Assembly: GCA_040437565.1 (NCBI GenBank)
Contig: JBDOQK010000023.1
Span: forward strand, 248,001-312,000
Direction: 5' to 3'
DNA: 64,000 nt
From: Albugo candida
Lineage: Eukaryota
Shown: positions 52,720 through 63,485 of the stretch, one piece after another
Numbering within the stretch: position 1 is the stretch's first letter
Layout of the letters: the number at the start of each line of letters is the position of its first letter
Notes under the pieces: generated by a model
Database searches by the model: none
Told to the model about the DNA's origin: nothing
What the model saw: only the letters and a program-made list of their open reading frames with translations
Position numbers and translations under genes: made by a program

Positions 52720-53322
52720 ATCCGTGACATCACTATGCGTGATAAAAACCTTGTAAGAAGAAGAAGAGAAGCCCGGAAACTTACAAATTGAGTATATCCG
52801 AGCTCGGAAGAGAATCCGACATTCTACCAGTAAGTAATCGATCGTCAATGCCAACTTGGACGGCCAATGGCTGCTTTTTGGTCCCACTACTTGTCAGCCC
52901 AAGCACTTTATACAAGTGAGCTTATGCTTGCATCCTGCCAATATAAACACGACGATACCTTTAATCCCGAGATTCCCAGTCGACATGATCAATTTGACTC
53001 AAATAGCGATTCGAATTGTGGCAACTGAGTCGAAAGAAAGAATATAAATGAGAAAGGTGGTTTACGATATTGACAGTTAATTCATAGATGATACCGTTGA
53101 AGCGCATTAGCATTCCGAACAAACTCTGCAATCGCTTCCTTTGACTTGCTGCAGACCTCATGAGCCCACCCATAAGCCACATAATTTGATACTGCATCGT
53201 CTCCACCCATGAACAGCGTTCATTCATTAGTAGCTCCTTTGAACGCCAAACACGTCGGTGATCGAGTTTGAGCTCATCTTTGTTACGCACCAATCAAATA
53301 TCATTCCATTTCTGAGACAAAT

Positions 53323-54604
53323 ATGCGCTTCCAAGCCCTTTTACGAGCAAATTGGAAGGCAACTGGACTGCTTCCCGTAGGATATGCTTCCATTTACGAT
53401 TCTCGCGACGCAATATTGACCGAGTCTCATAAACGTGCTTCGATATCAGCAGAGGATTTTCTGTATAAAAACCTATCGAGCGATGATACTCCACGAAATA
53501 GCGTGGAATTTGATAAAAATGCTCCCATGCGAAATCGGATGGAAGCGTTAATTTCACGAGTCCAGCAAGAAATATGTAAAGGAATTGAGGAGATTGACGG
53601 TGATGTATTTCGCATGGATGAATGGGCACGAGAGGGTCACGGTGGAGGTGGGAAGACTTGCATTCTGCAAGATGGAAATGTCTTTGAAAAAGCAGGAGTT
53701 GGAATCTCCATTGTTCATGGAATTCTTCCTCCAGCTGCGATGCAGCAGATGAAACAGCGTGGAAAAATTCTGGAAGAGACGAAATCGCTTCCATTTTACG
53801 CGTGTGGTATCAGCCTGGTGATTCATCCTCACAATCCGATGGCACCGACAATTCATTCAAATTATCGATACTTTGAAGTCGAGACCGGACAAGTCGATGA
53901 GCTTGGAAAGCCAAAAATTCTCTCATGGTTTGGTGGAGGAACAGATTTGACACCGAGTTATATCTTTGATCAAGATGCTCGACATTTCCATGCTGTGTAC
54001 AAGGTGAAGCTGGATCAGATCGATACAAAACTCTATCCAAAAATGAAAAAAGATTGCGATACTTATTTTTTTATTCCGCATCGCCAAGAAGGAAGAGGAA
54101 TTGGTGGTATTTTTTTTGATGATTTCGAGGAGAATAAGGAGCAAACGTTCCAAATGGTGCGAGCATGCGCGAATTCAGTGTTGGATTCCTACGTTCCTAT
54201 TTTACAGCGGAGAATCACAATGCCATTTTCAAAAAAGCAGAAAGAATGGCAACAGCTCCGTCGTGGGCGGTATGTGGAGTTTAATATCATGTACGATCGT
54301 GGAACAAAGTTTGGCCTCTGCACACCAGGAGCCCGTACAGAATCGATTCTGATGTCGCTACCGCTAACGGCTCGATGGGAATACATGAACCAGGTACTCC
54401 ATTCCATTCCCACATCATTCATTCAATTAACCTCGTGATTCTACGTAGCCACATCCGGGATCCTGGGAAGCTGAAACACTTGAGATTTTGAAGAAACCAG
54501 TCGACTGGATGGAAGTAACTTTGATGGATTTGGATAAGCTCTCCAACGGTCAATTACTCGCAGAAATCGCGAGGCGTTCAAAAGAAGAGCTTCATGGGAA
54601 ATAG
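53323..54604 (+). CDS. CPOX: Oxygen-dependent coproporphyrinogen III oxidase, 2 exons
   Basis: FEKAGV, SLVIHPHNPMAPTIHSNYRYF, WFGGGTDLTP, RGIGGIFFDD, QQLRRGRYVEFN..YDRGTKFGL, ESILMSLP. Intron 54394-54448 splices in frame to PHPGSWE..KPVDW. Confidence 0.97.
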
Positions 54605-54868: not shown

Positions 54869-57102
54869 TCAGAGCCCAATCCAATACGACCTTCCGTTCG
54901 GATTATGGATGGGTGAGGTCACCTGCGATGTCTTCACGGTCCACTCATACCACACCTTTTGATGCTGCGTCATCCTCCATATCGAGACTTTGATCGTGTC
55001 TCCTTGCTCCACCTGAATTGGTTGTCGGATCGGAAAATATATCGGGAACCAGCTAAACATTCCGTCGGAATGAGTCGTTGGATTGATACTTAGCATCACA
55101 TCCTCCAATAACACTGTATCAAAGTACCCAGCCAGCCCATGAATCACTGATGATTGATCAGCGATAAAATTAAGTTCGATGAATCTCCGATTATCTGGCA
55201 ATTGAGGCTTATTTGTATCAGATGATCGAGAAAAGCTTTTGCTCGGGTGTGTGAACGTAAAGCAAGCTTGAGATTCCGCGATCGAGTAGATATTATGCAG
55301 TCGAACAACATACGGCGTCTCAAAGTGCTTCAGCGACTCGAACGATTTCACATCGTTCCAAAGCTTGGATGACATGATCGGTGCAACGTACGATGTGTAT
55401 TTGCACGGGATGCTGATACCATTTGCTACAAAAAGCATTGTAAATGCGGCAGAGTAGAGGTTGATTGTTGCGAGAACGTACGATGTAGGAACGCTTGAGC
55501 CCCATCTAAACACTCTGGAGACAGTTCATTATCGCTAAAGGACCCCAATAACTCACTGACCATGATATCTGCCTACAAATCACCATTGAGCATGTAGATA
55601 AAAACGAACTCAATTCCATATTCTTACTTTCTCAGTCGCATTCCAAAATCGCATATCGGACGCAATAATTGTGACATTATCCCATTTTTCGGATTCCTTC
55701 AAATTACGAAGCGTTATGATCGCATTTGGATTCTTCTCAATAGCGTAGACTCGAATATCACGACATGCTGCTGTAGCCGCCCGCAAGCAACAACGAACAA
55801 TCGGTCCTCTTCCTGCCCCCACAACCATAACAACTGGGACTTGTGAGCCTGTGAATCGAAGAAGTGCTTTTTTCACCGCGACTTCATATTGATCATATTT
55901 GAAATTATCTTGTTCGAATGTCTCGTACGTTTGTGACTCCAAATTATCCATCAATGGTTGCAGAGGAGCCTGGAGATAATCCAAGTATGGGGCTTCAAAT
56001 TTTGCTTTACCATTCAAAGGACTCTTCTTCTCATGCAGATAATGTATATACTGAACGTACGGAAGGTACGAGCCACGATGAAATGGCTTCCCTTTGAAAA
56101 AAAAATGTATCCGAAAATTGAATAATCTGTCGAGACAAAAGCGTTGATGACATTGCGAAAGCGTTGGGTATCCTTTACGATTCGTCAAAAAGATATCAGT
56201 TGGTAGTATGACTGCCTATACAAAATCACATGAGTACACATTTGCTCGGAATCGCATGTTCACGCTTACCCGAACAGGTTCACCCATCCAACGACGCAAT
56301 TCAGCATCCGACGGTATGTCAGCGCCGATTTCTAGGACAATACAAATTTTGGGATTAAAGTCACACAAAGTACGCAAACTGTTCCAAATCTGTCAATACA
56401 AAAATTATCATTGGCAACTGACACTTGACAACTTTTAACCTTCCAAGAATTTTCCGAGCTGGCCATTGTCGTAGGCGTTTGGATCCAAAACTGTAAGTAT
56501 TGTGCTTGGATCGCCAGTTGGTTTAATATTCGAGCATAATTGGAGCAATCAGTGGTTTTTGGGAACGGAAGCACGACCGCTTGAATTGAAAGATGCGTCG
56601 CCCATGCAACCTCTTGTTTTAGTACTTTTTCAGCGACATTTCGGGTTTGTAGGCAAGTGGAATCGGGGTGTATCCATCGTGATACAACTCCGTAGATCGA
56701 AGTGGTCCAAACAGTGGAAGGTACCACGAGATCCGATCCTAAGGAATTGCATGGATCAGCGCTACTGTATGCATGATGCCGATAAGTAGACGAGCACACT
56801 TGCTTGTTGCGGGTCCAAGACGGGCGTCTGCAATACCAATGTCATCTCTTTTGAATCTGTGAAGGAAGCAGTAGAACGAGTGGAGGAGGCAGCTGAAATG
56901 TAGTTATTATAACCGTGGATGAAATAGAGGTGTCATTAATAGCGACATTTTCTCTTCTTGTAACTATACAAATAGTGAGATTATGTTATATAAAGCGTTA
57001 AAGGATAGTGGCAATGTAATGGATGCACACCTTTCCTATTGTGTTCGGTAGGTCGTAGCAAAACGGCGTCACGAGCCCATAACGAAGTCGATCATTGGTC
57101 AT
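54869..57102 (-). CDS. PRMT5: Protein arginine N-methyltransferase 5 (Skb1/Hsl7), multi-exon
   Basis: [95 protein letters not shown]. Start MTNDRLRYG at 57102. Confidence 0.96.
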
Positions 57103-58609: not shown

Positions 58610-58953
58610 CCTTTGCACCATTTTGGTACAGTTAACTATACCGAGGTCGAAATCCTAGTAGAGAATTAAGATGGCGTTCATTGTAAAAACGTCCACTACA
58701 GAAGGGAATAATATGAGGACAAAAGTGGATTACGCAATGTAACCAACTACCTCATTTCGTTTCAATCCTCATGAATGACTATCGTGTCGAGTATTTTACG
58801 CAACGAAAGAAGAGACGAGTTTTCCACAAGTATACAGACCTTCCACAGCCGTTACAAAGCTAGAATGAGACAGCAACACGCGACAGTACAGTACAAGCTA
58901 CTTGTTTAAATATTACGATCGAAATGGATGAGAATACTGCTTACAAAAAAGGT

Positions 58954-59821
58954 CTAAATGCTGGTAAAGATCGAATATGTATCTGTCGGCAAAGGAGAAT
59001 CAGGAGCAAACTCAGATGACGATTGGACTAGATATCGCCATTTGCTTGTGATTCGTAGTTTCCAGTACAGCAACCCCAGCCCACAAATACATGTAACTGC
59101 GATGCAAGTACCCATAGCATGTTGAAACTGTACCCACGCTAGTAGTGGAATCAATATTAAAAACGAAGAGATTCCTATCAAATTTATGTGAGTACTTTCG
59201 ATCGCTGAGATCTGAAATCACGTACCTGCACAAAAAAAGCGGTACGCCATAACCCACTCATTCTCACATCGCCGTAACCACCATATACAAAAGGGAGACA
59301 CTATTTCTAGCTGGTAAACTGGTAAGCCTCGCACTTCAATTTCAAGAGTATGCGTAACATAACGTGTGATTGCCAAAAGCAAAAGTGTGCAAATCAGCAT
59401 GCTCATCCACATAAAGAGAAACTACATGTATACCGTTGATACGATGAACCTCGCGTACTCAAATGACTCGTACCACAATAACTCCGGCTCCAGCGTATAT
59501 AACCAGCAAGAACTGATTCAAGTCAGGCGGTAAGCTAACTTCGACCATTGTGATCATCGTAAACGCGGACAAAAGAGCCCCTAGTTGTGCGATCGAAGTT
59601 AATTGACTGTGTCGTGCATCAATAATCCTCTTTTCATTTTCCAATTTGAATATGCGATATTCGCGCTCCAAGTCATCGTTTCTCCATGCGATTTCACGCT
59701 GAATTGCATCTTCTCGCCATTGCTTTTCCTGTTCACGATGTTTCAAATCTTCATCTCGCCATTGTTTTGCATTTTTGATATCGTACGACCCAAAAACGGC
59801 ATCGACAACTGCCGAAGCCAT
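58954..59821 (-). CDS. ORAI: Orai/CRAC-family calcium channel homologue, 3 exons, 254 aa
   Basis: Exons 59821-59474, 59421-59226 and 59174-58954 splice in frame (GT-AG). TM1 ALLSAFTMITMVEVSL compares with human Orai1 ALLSGFAMVAMVEVQL, TM2 MLICT with LMIST, and TM3 LLAWVQF with LLCWVKF. A fourth TM is present. Confidence 0.8.
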
Positions 59822-60289
59822 TCGCGTGAATATTCCGTCGGAATCGGATCAATGAATCATAGAGACGAGTTGTATCGGTTTTCTAGACATAATTTGATTG
59901 GTAGTAATCAAACTAAAAAAGTCCTTTTCAGCAACAAAATTGAAGCGACATCGACCCGAACACATCTTACACGCAAAGTAATAAAACGTTTGAAGCACAA
60001 GCAATGCACTTAAAAAAGCAACCTCCAACGTGGAATTTTTCAACGGCTCAAACTTTTGAAAATCCTTGCGTCGTAAAACGATCAAGGAAACTCACAAGCA
60101 AAGTACACCTTCTCATGTAACCGATACAATTGCCACTTGCGATCTCGAAACGTGTACAAAAAATAGCACTTATCCATGTAACCGGCCATTACCTTTGGAA
60201 ATCTCAATAAATCTAAAAAAATCACTTCATCGTAATGAAACGCCACTGCTTATTTCCGTGTATTCTGCTAGGAATCGCATTGGTTCCAC

Positions 60290-60307
60290 CTCATTTCAAA
60301 ACTTTCT
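60290..60307 (+). promoter_or_regulatory. INR+FPR-like core promoter
   Basis: CTCATTTCAAAACTTTCT lies about 65-80 nt upstream of ATG 60371 and resembles oomycete YCAYTYY-n-WTTT. Confidence 0.4.
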
Positions 60308-60370
60308 ATCTCCAACTCAGTTTGTGATCATTTATTTTATCAACTTTCACGTCTTTGTACAGTTGAGTCA

Positions 60371-63300
60371 ATGCGTTCTATCACGATCGTCAGTCTGCTC
60401 TATAGCTCCACTGCTTATAAAACGTGCACTATAAACCCATCGATCCCTACCACTTGCAATGGTTACCAAGGGTGGCAACCAGTCAAAGTGCAGAACGTTG
60501 GGACGTTTTGTGCACTAGGAGACATCTGTGGTGGCTCTAAAAACAAGAGCTGTCCAGAACCGCAGCAAGGTCTTCCCTTTGGCTCGCGATGTATGCTGGA
60601 AAGCGGCAACTATGAATGTGTAGCTAAAAAAAGCTGTGATGACGATGTGCCCGTCAAAGTACGTCCTCAATGCAAAGTGTCTGTGAGTCCACCTCCAATT
60701 GCAACCACTCCAAATACAGCAATTCCAACAGCTCCAGTAAACCCTGGTCTCTCTCAAGAAAACTCACCACCAAAAAAGATGGAAAATGTACCGGCTCCAC
60801 CTCCCAAAACCACTGAGGGTTCGTACTCTCCACCATTTACTCCGTCACCTCCCGGAGCTAATGTCCCAATGACACCAAAGACCGAGACGTCGAAAGTACC
60901 AGAAGCGTGGCAACCAACTCCACCAACAAAGACCCCGGAAGTACCAAAGACCCCGGAAGCTCCAAAGGTTCCTGAAACCATCAAAACTCCGACCCCAAAA
61001 TCTCCAATAACTCCGGATACACCAAAATCGCCGACCCCAGAAGCTCCAAAAAATCCTGATGCACCGAAAGCTCCCTTTACCCCCAGTACTCCGGATGCTC
61101 CAAAAGTCCCGGACGCATCTAAAATCCCATCTCCAGAAACCCCAAAGGTCCCAGAAAGTGTCAAAACTCCGGATGTACCGAAACCTTCAACATCAGATGT
61201 TCCAAAAACACCTCAGACCCCAAGTGTACCAAAAACTCCGGAAACATCAAACGTCCCACCCACTCCTCCAAGTAGTACCGTACCACCACCTCCTCAAAAC
61301 AAAGAAACTATTCCAGCTCCACCAACTTCCAAGGTACCAGTAAGCTATCCATCGCCTCCTTCAACACCTTCACAAGTGACCCCACCATTCAACTTTACAG
61401 TTACGAATCCTCCAAAAAATGAAAGCTCGGTACCTTTTGTGCCGTCAAACTCGAATGTACCAACACCTTCTCCGACCCCTTGTTTACCATTGCCTCCAAT
61501 AAAGGCCGAGGATACTCCTATTGTACCATCAGGGAATACAACAAACTCTTCTGTTCCGATCCCGTCGTCAGCACAAAACCCTCCAAAAAATGAAAGTGGT
61601 CTTGCACCTCCTACGGTTCCGTCACCGGCTCCTTCTCCATCTCAACCCACTCCGAAAAATGAAGTGCCGAATGCTCCAAAAAACGAAACAAAAGTTGGCG
61701 TCCCCGTTTCAGCAAAAAATGATAGCGCCCCAACCCCTCCTGTCGTACCAAAAGTGGAAGTACCTCCTGCTTCAAACAATGAAACAAAAGTGAGCGTTCC
61801 CGTCCCTTCCAAGAATGAAAGTGGGCCTGCTCCTCTTGTCGTTCCATTCCCGACACCAGTTCCATCCCAAAGTCCTCCAAAAGTGGATATTCCCCCTCTT
61901 CCAAAAAATGAAACGAATGTCAATGTTCCTGTTCCTGCAAAGAATGAAAGTGCTCCGACACCCCCTGTCGTTCCGATTCCACCTTCTTCGTATCAAGTAC
62001 CCAATACCACAAAAAATGAAACGAAAGTAACCGTCCCCGTTTCAGCAAAGAATGAAAGCGGGCCTGCTCCTCCGGTCGTTCCTTTCCCAACCCCAGCTCC
62101 ATCACAAAGTCCCCCAAAAGTGGAAATACCTCCTTCAAAAAACGAAACGAAAGTAAACGTCCCCGTTCNNNNNNNNNNNNNNNNNNNNNNNNNNNNNNNN
62201 NNNNNNNNNNNNNNNNNNNNNNNNNNNNNNNNNNNNNNNNNNNNNNNNNNNNNNNNNNNNNNNNNNNNTTCCGTCACCGGCTCCTTCTCCATCTCAACCC
62301 ACTCCGAAAAATGAAGTGCCGAATGCTCCAAAAAACGAAACAAAAGTTGGCGTCCCCGTTTCAGCAAAAAATGATAGCGCCCCAACCCCTCCTGTCGTAC
62401 CAAAAGTGGAAGTACCTCCTGCTTCAAACAATGAAACAAAAGTGAGCGTTCCCGTCCCTTCCAAGAATGAAAGTGGGCCTGCTCCTCTTGTCGTTCCATT
62501 CCCGACACCAGTTCCATCCCAAAGTCCTCCAAAAGTGGATATTCCCCCTCTTCCAAAAAATGAAACGAATGTCAATGTTCCTGTTCCTGCAAAGAATGAA
62601 AGTGCTCCGACACCCCCTGTCGTTCCGATTCCACCTTCTTCGTATCAAGTACCCAATACCACAAAAAATGAAACGAAAGTAACCGTCCCCGTTTCAGCAA
62701 AGAATGAAAGCGGGCCTGCTCCTCCGGTCGTTCCTTTCCCAACCCCAGCTCCATCACAAAGTCCCCCAAAAGTGGAAATACCTCCTTCAAAAAACGAAAC
62801 GAAAGTAAACGTCCCCGTTCCTTCGAAGAACGAAAGTGGGCCTGCTCCTCCTGTCGTTCCATTCCCGACACCTACTCCGTCCCAAAATCCTCCAAAAGTG
62901 GATATCCCCCTTCTTCCAAAAAATGAATCAAAAGTAAATGATCCTGTTCTTGCAAAGAACGAGAGTGCCTCAATGTCTCCTGTCGTTCCAAAGGTGGAAG
63001 TACCCAACCCACCAAAAACCGACAATCCCATCACACCTCCGGACAGTCCTCTTCCATCGTCTGCTTATGGCCCTCCTCCTGCCCCTCCCCTCTTTCAAAA
63101 ACCTGAGTCCAACGCGGCCCCACCAGTTCCTGTTCCCAACGCCCCGAAACAACTTTCCACTACACCATCCGTCACTACTCCAGTCACTACCCCAGTCACA
63201 CCTGCGGTAAAGACCGAAACCTCCGCCACCCCTCCGATTGTTCCGTCTCCATCTTCAGCGTATGGGACTCCATCAGTGCCTCGAACAGTTCCCGTGGCTG

Positions 63301-63485
63301 CACCCCCAGCATCGCCAATATCATCTCAGAAAATTGAAAATGCTCCCACAAATTCTCTTCCTCCAAACAATCAAATTCCTCCATCCAGAAGTTCCCCTGC
63401 AACTCCAATCACTGTCCCTACACCAATCTCAGTCCCACCTACCAAATCGACACCTAATGGCGCATACGGCCCTTCTGCGTATTAA
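60371..63485 (+). CDS. Secreted Pro/Thr/Ser-rich mucin-like repeat protein with an N-terminal Cys-rich oomycete domain, about 820 aa after collapsing the duplication
   Basis: Signal peptide, then V.VQNVGTFC...ICGG...CP..Q.GLPFGS.C...YECV, TP(E/D)xPK repeats and KNE(S/T) repeats. Removing the overlap (61617-62168 = 62269-62820) gives an in-frame 2463-nt ORF. Confidence 0.85.

What the first reader, a model, noticed from the sequence alone, without database searches (positions are those of the whole stretch)
58954..59821. Orai/CRAC channel homologue with conserved filter but rewired gating residues
Seen: the gene is split over three small ORFs but splices cleanly to 254 aa with 4 TMs. Manual ungapped alignment to human Orai1 keeps the E106 selectivity Glu, F99 and L95, with I at V102. 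The basic pore residues R83/K87/R91 become H/T/Q, G98 becomes A, TM2 H134 becomes M, and TM3 E190 becomes L. Known: animal Orai is opened by STIM, and several H134 substitutions open Orai1 without STIM. Inference: a STIM-independent Ca2+ entry system in an oomycete, where Ca2+ governs zoospore encystment and germination. Orai-like genes are known outside animals, so the open question is the gating, not the gene's existence.
Basis: partly seen in the sequence, partly recalled or inferred. Interest (0 to 1): 0.72.

Follow-up and report, generated by a model that had tools for sequence, protein, structure and literature searches.

The report
Oomycete Orai calcium-channel gene, transcribed and spliced
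This is a real, expressed gene for an Orai-type calcium-channel subunit in an oomycete; the whole oomycete family lacks the parts that animals use to switch the channel on, so the gene is ordinary for its group but its switch remains unknown.

Summary
A minus-strand gene at 58954-59821 has three exons and two GT..AG introns of 52 and 51 nt. It encodes 254 aa with four hydrophobic helices. Contigs from two runs skip exactly these introns, while two others keep them. Each exon piece hits Pfam Orai-1 colinearly. A profile of 27 orthologues hits only Drosophila Orai in the PDB, and an orthologue's model matches those structures best.

However, the "rewiring" is family-wide: among 52 oomycete Orai proteins none has the TM2 His or the TM4 Pro, and one has a basic residue at R91. 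The animal STIM-docking C-terminal helix is absent.

Oomycete Orai genes are already annotated and appear in a published tree (PMC11085791), although oomycete reviews call them undetectable (PMC4820453). "Open without STIM" cannot be inferred, because human mutant data point both ways.

The most conserved part is an oomycete-specific 69-aa N-terminal helix continuous with the pore helix. It is predicted to self-associate in parallel, which makes it a candidate gating module. Verdict: a new member of a known kind, of moderate interest.

The parts
59474..59821 (-). Exon 1: codons 1-116 (start ATG 59819-59821). Covers the N-terminal helix, TM1 and the start of TM2.
   Evidence: gene model. Pfam Orai-1 E 2.2e-9, residues 61-115 on profile 3-62; contigs of X1 and X2 cover it.
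59422..59473 (-). Intron 1, 52 nt, GT..AG
   Evidence: skipped in one contig each of X1 and X2 (CT..AC on +). Retained in the X6 and X10 contigs.
59226..59421 (-). Exon 2, 196 nt: TM2, the cytosolic loop 2 and the start of TM3
   Evidence: Orai-1 E 2.4e-4, profile 66-116 (21.3 bits, below the cut-off of 25 on its own); tblastn colinear with orthologues.
59175..59225 (-). Intron 2, 51 nt, GT..AG
   Evidence: joint 59173->59225 with 'cut +1', in one contig each of X1 and X2. Retained in X6 and X10.
58954..59174 (-). Exon 3: TM3, TM4, a 23-aa tail and the stop codon (58954-58956)
   Evidence: Orai-1 E 2.5e-10, profile 114-172..
59615..59821 (-). Codons 1-69: conserved N-terminal cytosolic helix with three Trp-Arg motifs (W21, W35, W46). 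It lies outside the Pfam Orai-1 match.
   Evidence: the most conserved region (mean top-residue frequency 0.85); helix 2-96 in the orthologue model; found only with Orai domains; predicted parallel self-association.
59534..59614 (-). Codons 70-96: the TM1 pore helix. H71, T75 and Q79 sit at the three basic-pore positions. Then L83, A86, F87, M89 and I90, and the filter Glu E94 (codon 59540-59542).
   Evidence: ungapped 34-residue alignment to Drosophila Orai chains; column table.
59410..59412 (-). Codon M120, at the position of human H134 / fly H206 (the TM2 'brake')
   Evidence: the profile alignment puts the family's invariant Met opposite chain residue 74 (His)..
58907..59912 (-). Extent covered by the spliced contigs (minimum transcript span)
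   Evidence: table 8: X1 record 4 spans 58945-59912 and X2 record 7 spans 58907-59882.

Best explanation
The gene encodes the pore subunit of an Orai-type cation channel, by homology a hexamer. It belongs to the canonical oomycete Orai clade.

What the sequence and the comparisons show. TM1 carries the selectivity Glu (E94). Below it lies a hydrophobic gate (I90, F87) with the Met 'latch' (M89). The inner pore is polar (Q79, T75, H71) rather than basic. The gene is transcribed, correctly spliced and under purifying selection. It lacks every animal element through which STIM acts or by which the closed state is held: the C-terminal M4-extension helix, the TM4 Pro kink and the TM2 His.

What is inferred. 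It cannot be a STIM-gated CRAC channel in the animal sense. The gating input most likely enters through the two cytosolic elements that oomycetes conserve best. One is a 69-residue N-terminal helix continuous with TM1, predicted to form a parallel in-register bundle under the pore. The other is the lengthened TM2-TM3 loop. The ligand, partner, resting state, selectivity and membrane location are all unknown.
For: Family membership
- Pfam Orai-1 hits all three exon pieces colinearly.
- A profile of 27 orthologues hits 6 of 6 distinct PDB sequences that are Drosophila Orai, at E 2e-8 to 2e-7.
- The AlphaFold2 model of orthologue P0003 (58% identical to the window protein) has pLDDT 82.8. Its PDB ranks 1-11 are all Drosophila Orai, TM-score by target 0.58-0.76, with 2 hits at E<=0.001.

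Expression and constraint
- Spliced contigs occur in 2 of the 4 runs laid.
- Against the X10 contig, 6 of 6 coding differences are synonymous. Another 5 substitutions and 1 deletion are non-coding.

Placement
- The window protein falls inside the canonical peronosporomycete clade (support 100/100, 27 rows).

Missing animal parts
- Of 52 oomycete proteins, 0 have His at H134, 0 have Pro at P245 and 1 has a basic residue at R91.
- F99 is Phe in 52 of 52. The filter position is E or D in 36 and N in 16.
- The tail is 23 aa with a top-residue frequency of 0.35.

N-terminal helix
- Its top-residue frequency is 0.85, against 0.66-0.73 for the TM helices.
- It forms one helix, residues 2-96, at pLDDT of about 90 in the orthologue.
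- phmmer of the 70 aa against 1.84 billion representatives gave 22 hits. Eighteen of these carry Orai-1: 16 of the 20 scanned, plus 2 listed.
- Four copies of residues 1-72 of P0003 scored ipSAE 0.44 against a best control of 0.02. The runs agree in at least 69% of contacts and the partner pLDDT is at least 67. That mark was reached by 21 of 30 proteins solved as pairs of one chain and by 0 of 23 solved as single chains.
- The contacts are parallel and in register: 23-24, 27-27, 30-31, 34-34, 37-38, 41-42, 48-49 and 55-56.
- 11 of the 15 invariant residues in positions 15-58 lie in that interface, which covers 22 of 44 positions (hypergeometric p = 0.027).
Against: - No current, localisation or oligomer has been measured for any oomycete Orai. 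Searches found no functional study.
- The whole spliced protein could not be handed to the Pfam, structure or complex tools. Structural statements therefore rest on an orthologue that is 58% identical.
- The complex job used 4 copies, not 6, and no alignment. It is unlike the calibration, which used two copies, and long charged helices are easily laid side by side.
- In human Orai1, removing the three basic pore residues abolishes conduction (PMC7034092, sections 17 and 20). By that yardstick this pore might conduct poorly or differently.
- The window copy sits on a long branch (0.6 against a median of 0.16). It departs from the family at 5 near-invariant positions.
- The run kind 'RNA' for X1 and X2 is a guess by the tool. 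Only the intron-less contigs argue that they are RNA.
Confidence: 0.8

Rival explanations
1. The channel is constitutively open or self-activating because the His brake and the TM4 Pro are gone. It would then be controlled only by expression or trafficking.
For: - In human Orai1, H134A/S/C/T/V/M/E activate without STIM (PMC12893689, passages).
- Any P245 substitution is gain-of-function, and so are V102A/C/G/S/T (PMC7825772, passages).
- Met at H134 occurs in 45 of 52 oomycete proteins and Pro at P245 in none. Twenty of 52 have A, C, S or T at V102.
Against: - The window protein itself keeps a bulky hydrophobic gate (I90, F87, M89).
- Neutralising R83/K87/R91 in human Orai1 gives no constitutive current and abolishes the H134S current (PMC7034092, section 17). 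The window protein has H, T and Q at these positions.
- Transferring single-residue phenotypes across roughly 24% identity is unreliable.
- The strong conservation of the cytosolic N-terminus and loop 2 suggests regulation.
Confidence: 0.2
2. It is a store- or signal-operated channel gated by an unrelated, still unknown sensor protein. That sensor would dock on the conserved N-terminal helix or on loop 2 and act as a functional analogue of STIM.
For: - PMC11085791 (section 2.12, read) argues that Orai-bearing lineages without STIM probably have another protein doing the same job.
- The invariant surface residues of the N-terminal helix could be a docking site.
- Oomycetes have IP3-receptor homologues, according to PMC9694693 (passage).
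Against: - No candidate partner was found. The neighbours are a coproporphyrinogen oxidase, PRMT5 and a Pro-rich repeat protein.
- Most invariant N-terminal residues fall in the predicted self-interface rather than on a free surface.
Confidence: 0.25
3. It is not a plasma-membrane Ca2+ entry channel. It could be an organellar channel or an Orai-fold protein with another role, as proposed for the animal Orai-derived Jiraiya/TMEM221.
For: - PMC7016017 (passage) derives Jiraiya from Orai and places it in the ER.
- A second oomycete paralogue group has Asn instead of the filter Glu in 16 of 16 members, so the fold is used without the Ca2+ site.
Against: This gene's clade keeps the filter residue (E or D in 26 of 26 peronosporomycete and E in 8 of 8 saprolegnian canonical members). 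It also keeps F99, E173, W176, G183 and the L261-equivalent. That is the pattern of a selective pore.
Confidence: 0.1
4. It is a decaying or relaxed copy, a fast-evolving gene on the way to becoming a pseudogene.
For: The branch is long. There are departures at 5 positions shared by at least 24 of 27 relatives, plus Ala at G98, Gly at S93 and a Pro in TM3.
Against: The 254-codon frame is intact, the splice sites are canonical and used, and 6 of 6 coding differences from a related contig are synonymous.
Confidence: 0.03

Closest known systems
Drosophila Orai / human Orai1 (CRAC channel pore subunit; PDB 4HKR, 6BBF-6BBI, 6AKI, 7KR5; Pfam PF07856)
   Same: - The four-helix fold, with a TM1 pore helix.
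- The filter Glu, the Phe and aliphatic hydrophobic gate, and the Met latch.
- Equivalents of E173, W176, G183 and L261/V262.
   Different: - No basic inner pore: H, T and Q at R83, K87 and R91.
- Met instead of the TM2 His, and no TM4 Pro.
- No C-terminal M4-extension helix where STIM1 docks.
- An extra 69-aa conserved N-terminal helix and a TM2-TM3 loop about 8 residues longer.
- About 23-25% identity in the structural alignment.
Annotated oomycete 'calcium release-activated calcium channel protein' genes. Genera include Pythium, Globisporangium, Phytophthora, Peronospora, Plasmopara, Albugo, Aphanomyces and Saprolegnia. Sequences from four oomycete species are used in Fig. 8 of PMC11085791.
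   Same: They are orthologues, 46-62% identical over the full length. They share the architecture, the N-terminal helix and the fixed Met at the H134 position.
   Different: The window copy is on a longer branch. It also has its own changes:
- Ala at G98 (family G or F).
- Gly at S93 (Ser in 25 of 26 peronosporomycete canonical members).
- Val where 22 of 26 have Glu (the L130 position).
- Leu at E190.
- Pro in TM3.
Non-animal Orai of green algae, early land plants, brown algae and diatoms
   Same: These are Orai genes in lineages without a detectable STIM. The filter Glu is retained and the gating is unknown (PMC11085791 section 2.12; PMC7016017).
   Different: The N-terminal Trp-Arg helix was found only in oomycete-type Orai proteins. 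There were 22 hits in 1.84 billion representatives, and every named relative is an oomycete. I did not align algal or plant Orai here.

Membership tests
Orai family (Pfam PF07856, Orai-1) | Significant match to the family HMM across the domain | tested here: met
   One search gave 37.7 bits for exon 1 and 40.7 bits for exon 3 (cut-off 25). Exon 2 gave 21.3 bits, below the cut-off on its own. The three matches are colinear, on profile 3-62, 66-116 and 114-172. The joined protein itself could not be scanned. Full-length relatives score up to 156 bits.
Orai family (Pfam PF07856, Orai-1) | Four transmembrane helices with the Orai fold | tested here: met
   Hydropathy was computed on the window protein. 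The AF2 model of orthologue P0003 has helices 2-96, 105-150, 171-199 and 204-233. PDB ranks 1-11 are all Drosophila Orai. The fold was tested on the orthologue, not on the window protein.
Orai family (Pfam PF07856, Orai-1) | Acidic selectivity-filter residue at the outer end of TM1 (E106 human / E178 fly) | tested here: met
   E94 aligns with the chain's Glu (index 46) in an ungapped alignment. The family has E in 34, D in 2 and N in 16 of 52.
Orai family (Pfam PF07856, Orai-1) | Hydrophobic gate (V102, F99) in TM1 | tested here: met
   The window has I90 and F87. F99 is Phe in 52 of 52.
Orai family (Pfam PF07856, Orai-1) | Hexameric assembly around a TM1 pore | not tested
   The complex tool takes at most 4 copies and 1000 residues. 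Only the N-terminal 72 residues in 4 copies were run.
Animal CRAC system (STIM-gated Orai) | Basic inner pore (R83, K87, R91) | tested here: not met
   The window has H71, T75 and Q79. In the family, R91 is basic in 1 of 52 and K87 and R83 are Arg in 3 of 52 each.
Animal CRAC system (STIM-gated Orai) | TM2 His brake (H134 / fly H206) | tested here: not met
   The window has M120. None of the 52 relatives has His.
Animal CRAC system (STIM-gated Orai) | TM4 Pro kink (P245 / fly P288) | tested here: not met
   The window has G213. None of the 52 relatives has Pro at this column.
Animal CRAC system (STIM-gated Orai) | C-terminal M4-extension helix that docks STIM1 | tested here: not met
   After the L-V 'nexus' equivalent only 23 residues follow. 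They are rich in Ser, Pro and Thr and unconserved. The orthologue model has no helix there and pLDDT below 50 at 233-252.
Animal CRAC system (STIM-gated Orai) | A STIM protein (luminal EF-SAM plus cytosolic SOAR/CAD) in the same genome | not testable with these tools
   No genome is held for this window, and I had no STIM sequence available as a query. Literature only: PMC4820453 (passages) found just a SAM-sharing protein in P. infestans. PMC7016017 and PMC11085791 place STIM at or near animals.
Animal CRAC system (STIM-gated Orai) | Store-operated, highly Ca2+-selective current | not testable with these tools
   This needs electrophysiology or Ca2+ imaging.

The most novel reading that the evidence does not exclude
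Oomycete Orai channels may carry their own built-in gate. This would be a roughly 70-residue N-terminal helix, unique to the group, that continues the pore helix into the cytosol. Six copies would zip into a parallel Trp/Arg/Asp-lined bundle under the pore. Opening would require this bundle to loosen or to bind a cytosolic signal, replacing the animal STIM/C-terminus route. That would be a second, independent solution to Orai gating and an oomycete-specific handle on Ca2+ entry.
Probability: 0.22. Interest if true: 0.65.

Novelty: new member of a known kind. Interest (0 to 1): 0.36.

Why it matters
How Orai channels are opened outside animals, where STIM is absent, is an open question (PMC11085791, section 2.12). 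Oomycete Ca2+-signalling reviews still list Orai as undetectable (PMC4820453 in 2016; PMC9694693 in 2022). In fact every oomycete sampled here has two or three Orai genes, including the two species those reviews examined.

Three observations give concrete constructs for heterologous electrophysiology:
- The family-wide loss of the His brake, the Pro kink, the basic pore and the docking helix.
- One paralogue group that lacks the filter Glu.
- The conserved N-terminal helix.

The gene itself, however, is an ordinary orthologue of already annotated genes.

Tried and rejected
- Own-genome search for Orai or STIM: no genome is held.
- The look-up of sequencing runs with kind 'rna' listed no holder on record as RNA. 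The runs I laid are labelled 'RNA?' as a guess.
- Exon 1 alone against PDB sequences gave only marginal hits (E 0.34-0.84 for Orai chains; two GH16 chains at E 0.16-0.17 are chance matches on the charged helix). The 27-sequence profile was needed.
- P0001, a 352-aa database 'protein' that is 100% identical over exon 1, is a read-through of the introns and flanks. It carries Trp where the window has stop codons. I rejected it as a gene model.
- A tblastn of six oomycete relatives, including two Orai-aspartokinase/homoserine-dehydrogenase fusion models, found only this one Orai locus in the window and no dehydrogenase part. I take the fusions to be merged neighbouring genes elsewhere.
- Pfam on nine neighbouring ORFs found nothing linked to Ca2+.
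- The primary paper for the H134 scan (PMC5984495) is not held, and a search for 'H134M' found no Orai paper. The Met result is therefore cited from a review.
- Searches found no functional study of an oomycete Orai.

Full report
**Observation.** The finding's coordinates delimit a minus-strand coding sequence exactly. The ATG is at 59821 and the stop codon at 58956-58954.

A script that joined the three open frames at GT..AG boundaries gave exons of 348, 196 and 221 nt and introns of 52 and 51 nt. The product is 765 nt, or 254 codons, with no internal stop. Kyte-Doolittle hydropathy shows four hydrophobic stretches.

The first in-frame ATG after the upstream stop gives the same N-terminus as relatives such as P0029 and P0043.

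**Splicing and expression.** Ten public runs hold the stretch, and I laid four of them.
- X1 has one 865-nt contig and X2 one 873-nt contig. Both join 59421 to 59474 (skipping 52 nt) and 59173 to 59225 (skipping 51 nt, with 'cut +1' fitting equally, which is my intron 59175-59225). Both joints have CT..AC ends on the + strand, meaning GT..AG on the gene's strand.
- The contigs of X6 and X10 run through both introns.
- The tool's 'RNA?' label for X1 and X2 is a guess. The intron-less contigs are what argue that they are RNA.
- X1 and X2 belong to one study, so this is one independent source.
- The spliced contigs span at least 58907-59912.

**Selection.** The X10 contig differs from the window at 11 substitutions and one 1-nt deletion over 1151 nt. 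Six substitutions fall in the coding sequence and all six are synonymous. Two lie in the introns and three, plus the deletion, lie 3' of the stop. The sample is small, but it fits purifying selection.

**Family.** Pfam Orai-1 (PF07856) is the top hit for each exon translation: the only hit for exons 1 and 2, and the best of four at E up to 1 for exon 3. The E-values are 2.2e-9, 2.4e-4 and 2.5e-10, on consecutive parts of the profile (3-62, 66-116, 114-172).

The joined protein could not be given to the family or structure tools, so I worked through orthologues.
- Exon 1 finds 38 longer proteins, all with a precomputed Orai-1 domain. All named ones are from oomycetes.
- A profile of 27 full-length relatives (A1) finds 98 proteins. 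Again all named ones are oomycetes: Phytophthora, Peronospora, Plasmopara, Bremia, Peronosclerospora, Hyaloperonospora, Nothophytophthora, Pythium, Globisporangium, Lagenidium, Albugo, Aphanomyces, Saprolegnia, Achlya and Thraustotheca.
- The same profile hits six distinct PDB sequences, all of them Drosophila Orai, at E 2e-8 to 2e-7.
- An AlphaFold2 model of P0003, which is 58% identical to the window protein, has mean pLDDT 82.8. Its Foldseek PDB ranks 1-11 are all Drosophila Orai entries, with TM-score by target 0.58-0.76. Only 2 hits reach E<=0.001.

**Residue mapping.** Exon 1 aligns without gaps over 34 residues to the fly chain. The chain index plus 132 gives fly numbering: index 46 is E178, 31 is K163 and 74 is H206. 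These agree with the PDB entry titles (K163W, H206A), with the E178 statement in PMC11085791, and with a review that equates fly H206A and P288L with human H134A and P245L. The general offset of 72 between fly and human numbering is otherwise from my own knowledge.

With the window residues map as follows.

| Window residue | Human Orai1 position |
|---|---|
| H71 | R83 |
| T75 | K87 |
| Q79 | R91 |
| L83 | L95 |
| S85 | S97 |
| A86 | G98 |
| F87 | F99 |
| M89 | M101 |
| I90 | V102 |
| E94 | E106 |
| M120 | H134 |
| L189 | E190 |
| G213 | P245 |
| L230, V231 | L261, V262 |

**The pattern belongs to the family, not to this gene.** I aligned 52 oomycete Orai proteins with the window protein.

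| Position | Residues in the 52 relatives |
|---|---|
| F99 | Phe in 52 |
| H134 | Met 45, Leu 5, Thr 1, gap 1; never His |
| P245 | never Pro |
| R91 | basic in 1 |
| K87, R83 | Arg in 3 each |
| E106, canonical clades | E or D in 26 of 26 peronosporomycete and E in 8 of 8 saprolegnian members |
| E106, two further paralogue groups | Asn in 9 of 9 and 7 of 7 |
| V102 | variable; A, C, S or T in 20 |

The residues specific to the window protein are these:
- Ala at G98.
- Gly at S93.
- Val where 22 of 26 close relatives have Glu (the L130 position).
- Leu at E190.
- A Pro in TM3.
- Five departures from positions shared by at least 24 of 27 relatives.

A maximum-likelihood tree puts the window protein inside the canonical peronosporomycete clade (100/100, 27 rows). 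It sits next to Albugo laibachii with moderate support (89/92). Both are on long branches (0.6 and 1.09, against a median of 0.16).

**What is missing and what is added.** After the Leu-Val equivalent of the animal 'nexus', only 23 residues follow. They are rich in Ser, Pro and Thr and are the least conserved long segment of the protein (top-residue frequency 0.35). They are unstructured in the orthologue model (pLDDT below 50 at 233-252). The animal C-terminal helix is the primary STIM1 docking site (abstracts of 10.1101/2025.08.08.669298 and PMC13358370), and here it is absent.

The first 69 residues, which lie outside the Pfam match, are by contrast the most conserved part of the family. 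Their top-residue frequency is 0.85, against 0.66-0.73 for the four TM helices and 0.77 for loop 2. Invariant Trp, Arg and Asp residues recur three times.
- In the orthologue model, residues 2-96 form one continuous helix with block-mean pLDDT of 90 or more from about residue 21 to 90 (70 and 81 for the first two ten-residue blocks). The N-terminus therefore prolongs the pore helix by about 70 residues.
- phmmer of these 70 residues against 1.84 billion representatives gave only 22 hits. Eighteen of these carry an Orai-1 domain: 16 of the 20 scanned, plus two already listed. The other four are fragments or merged models.
- Four copies of residues 1-72 of P0003 scored ipSAE 0.44 against a best control of 0.02. 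The runs agree in at least 69% of contacts and the partner pLDDT is at least 67.
- That mark was reached by 21 of 30 proteins solved as pairs of one chain and by 0 of 23 solved as single chains. The tool warns that the job is unlike its two-copy calibration.
- The confident contacts are parallel and in register at a 3-4 residue spacing: 23-24, 27-27, 30-31, 34-34, 37-38, 41-42, 48-49 and 55-56.
- Eleven of the 15 invariant residues between positions 15 and 58 lie in this interface, which covers 22 of 44 positions (p = 0.027).

This supports self-association of the N-terminal helices but does not show it.

**How it probably works.**

Shown: the gene is an expressed, constrained member of the Orai family with an intact acidic filter and hydrophobic gate.

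Inferred from homology: it forms a hexameric cation channel that is probably Ca2+-selective.

Inferred from the missing parts: STIM-type coupling through the C-terminus cannot operate.

The resting state cannot be read from the sequence, because human mutant data point in opposite directions.
- H134A/S/C/T/V/M/E activate (PMC12893689, passages).
- Any P245 substitution, and V102A/C/G/S/T, are gain-of-function (PMC7825772, passages).
- Neutralising R83/K87/R91 to Ser, Ala or Gln produces no constitutive current. It abolishes both the STIM1-gated and the H134S currents. Single and double Gln substitutions are better tolerated (PMC7034092, sections 17 and 20).

My best guess is that regulation enters through the conserved cytosolic N-terminal helix and the lengthened TM2-TM3 loop. 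I hold this with modest confidence.

**Surroundings.** The window holds a single Orai locus. Its neighbours are as follows:
- a coproporphyrinogen III oxidase (53272-54438, +);
- a PRMT5 gene in several exons (about 54872-56841, -);
- a long Pro/Thr-rich repetitive ORF (60272-63485, +, interrupted by an N run).

Nothing here suggests a partner.

**What is known.** Orai is described as largely pan-eukaryotic, with STIM arising near animals (PMC7016017, passages). PMC11085791 includes Orai sequences from four oomycete species (Saprolegnia parasitica, Phytophthora capsici, P. sojae and P. infestans) in its Orai tree (legend of Fig. 8). It notes that lineages with Orai but no STIM probably use another activator (section 2.12).

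UniProt and NCBI already name many orthologues 'calcium release-activated calcium channel protein'. By contrast, the oomycete-focused reviews state that no STIM or Orai homologues were detectable in nine oomycete genomes (PMC4820453, passages). PMC9694693 repeats this for P. infestans and S. diclina (passage). One search lists Orai-domain proteins from exactly those two species.

I found no functional study of an oomycete Orai.

**Verdict.** But the substitutions are family-wide, they are not diagnostic of an open channel, and the gene's existence is already on record. The fresh element is the oomycete-specific, highly conserved N-terminal helix that continues the pore helix and is predicted to self-associate. 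It is a concrete and testable candidate for STIM-independent gating.

Noticed in passing
Related proteins, not the window: P0075, P0082, P0085-P0087, P0091, P0095, P0097, P0047 and P0072, P0074, P0078, P0080, P0090, P0092, P0055: Oomycetes carry a second, ancient Orai paralogue group (about 250-340 aa). The filter Glu is Asn in 16 of 16 members. W176 is Gln or His in the peronosporomycete branch. These are Orai-fold proteins that probably do not select Ca2+ in the canonical way.
   Followed up: partly
Related proteins: Ph. fragariae g15629/g15627, P. sorghi 007302/007300, S. diclina 08420/08419, Bremia 005241/005242, Ph. boehmeriae 000767/000769: Locus tags two apart or adjacent suggest that Orai paralogues lie in tandem in several oomycete genomes. 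The window holds only one copy.
   Followed up: no
window 58860-58944 (-): A 60-nt, low-depth (4.9) contig of X1 joins 58859 to 58945, skipping 85 nt with CT..AC ends. This starts 9 nt past the stop codon. It may be an optional 3'-UTR intron or a read-through into the next transcript.
   Followed up: no
window 60272-63485 (+): A very long open frame rich in Pro, Thr, Ser and Lys, with dozens of short repeats containing Asn-Glu-Thr/Ser motifs (potential N-glycosylation sites). It has no Pfam hit and is interrupted by an N run at 62169-62268. It looks like a mucin- or extensin-like secreted or wall protein.
   Followed up: partly
P0001 (database protein, 352 aa): A public gene call on a 2.7-kb Logan contig reads straight through both introns and the flanks of this gene, with Trp where the window has stop codons. 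It is an artefact of prokaryote-style gene calling on eukaryotic DNA.
   Followed up: yes
P0007, P0009, P0015, P0023 (database proteins, 639-1152 aa) and P0046, P0048: Several public models fuse the Orai domain to an aspartokinase/homoserine dehydrogenase or to a DHHC palmitoyltransferase. These are probably merged neighbouring genes. In one search, P0009 and P0023 matched the window only in their N-terminal (Orai) residues, and no dehydrogenase part was found.
   Followed up: partly
window 53272-54438 (+) and 54872-56841 (-): Housekeeping neighbours: coproporphyrinogen III oxidase (E 4.5e-124) and a multi-exon PRMT5 arginine methyltransferase. The window's G+C is 43.7% and it holds 13 N runs of 100 nt.
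   Followed up: no
Literature: PMC4820453 and PMC9694693 state that Orai is undetectable in P. infestans and S. diclina. Yet Orai-domain proteins from both species are in public databases (PInf_022692, SDRG_08420, SDRG_08419). BLASTP with human queries evidently missed them.
   Followed up: yes
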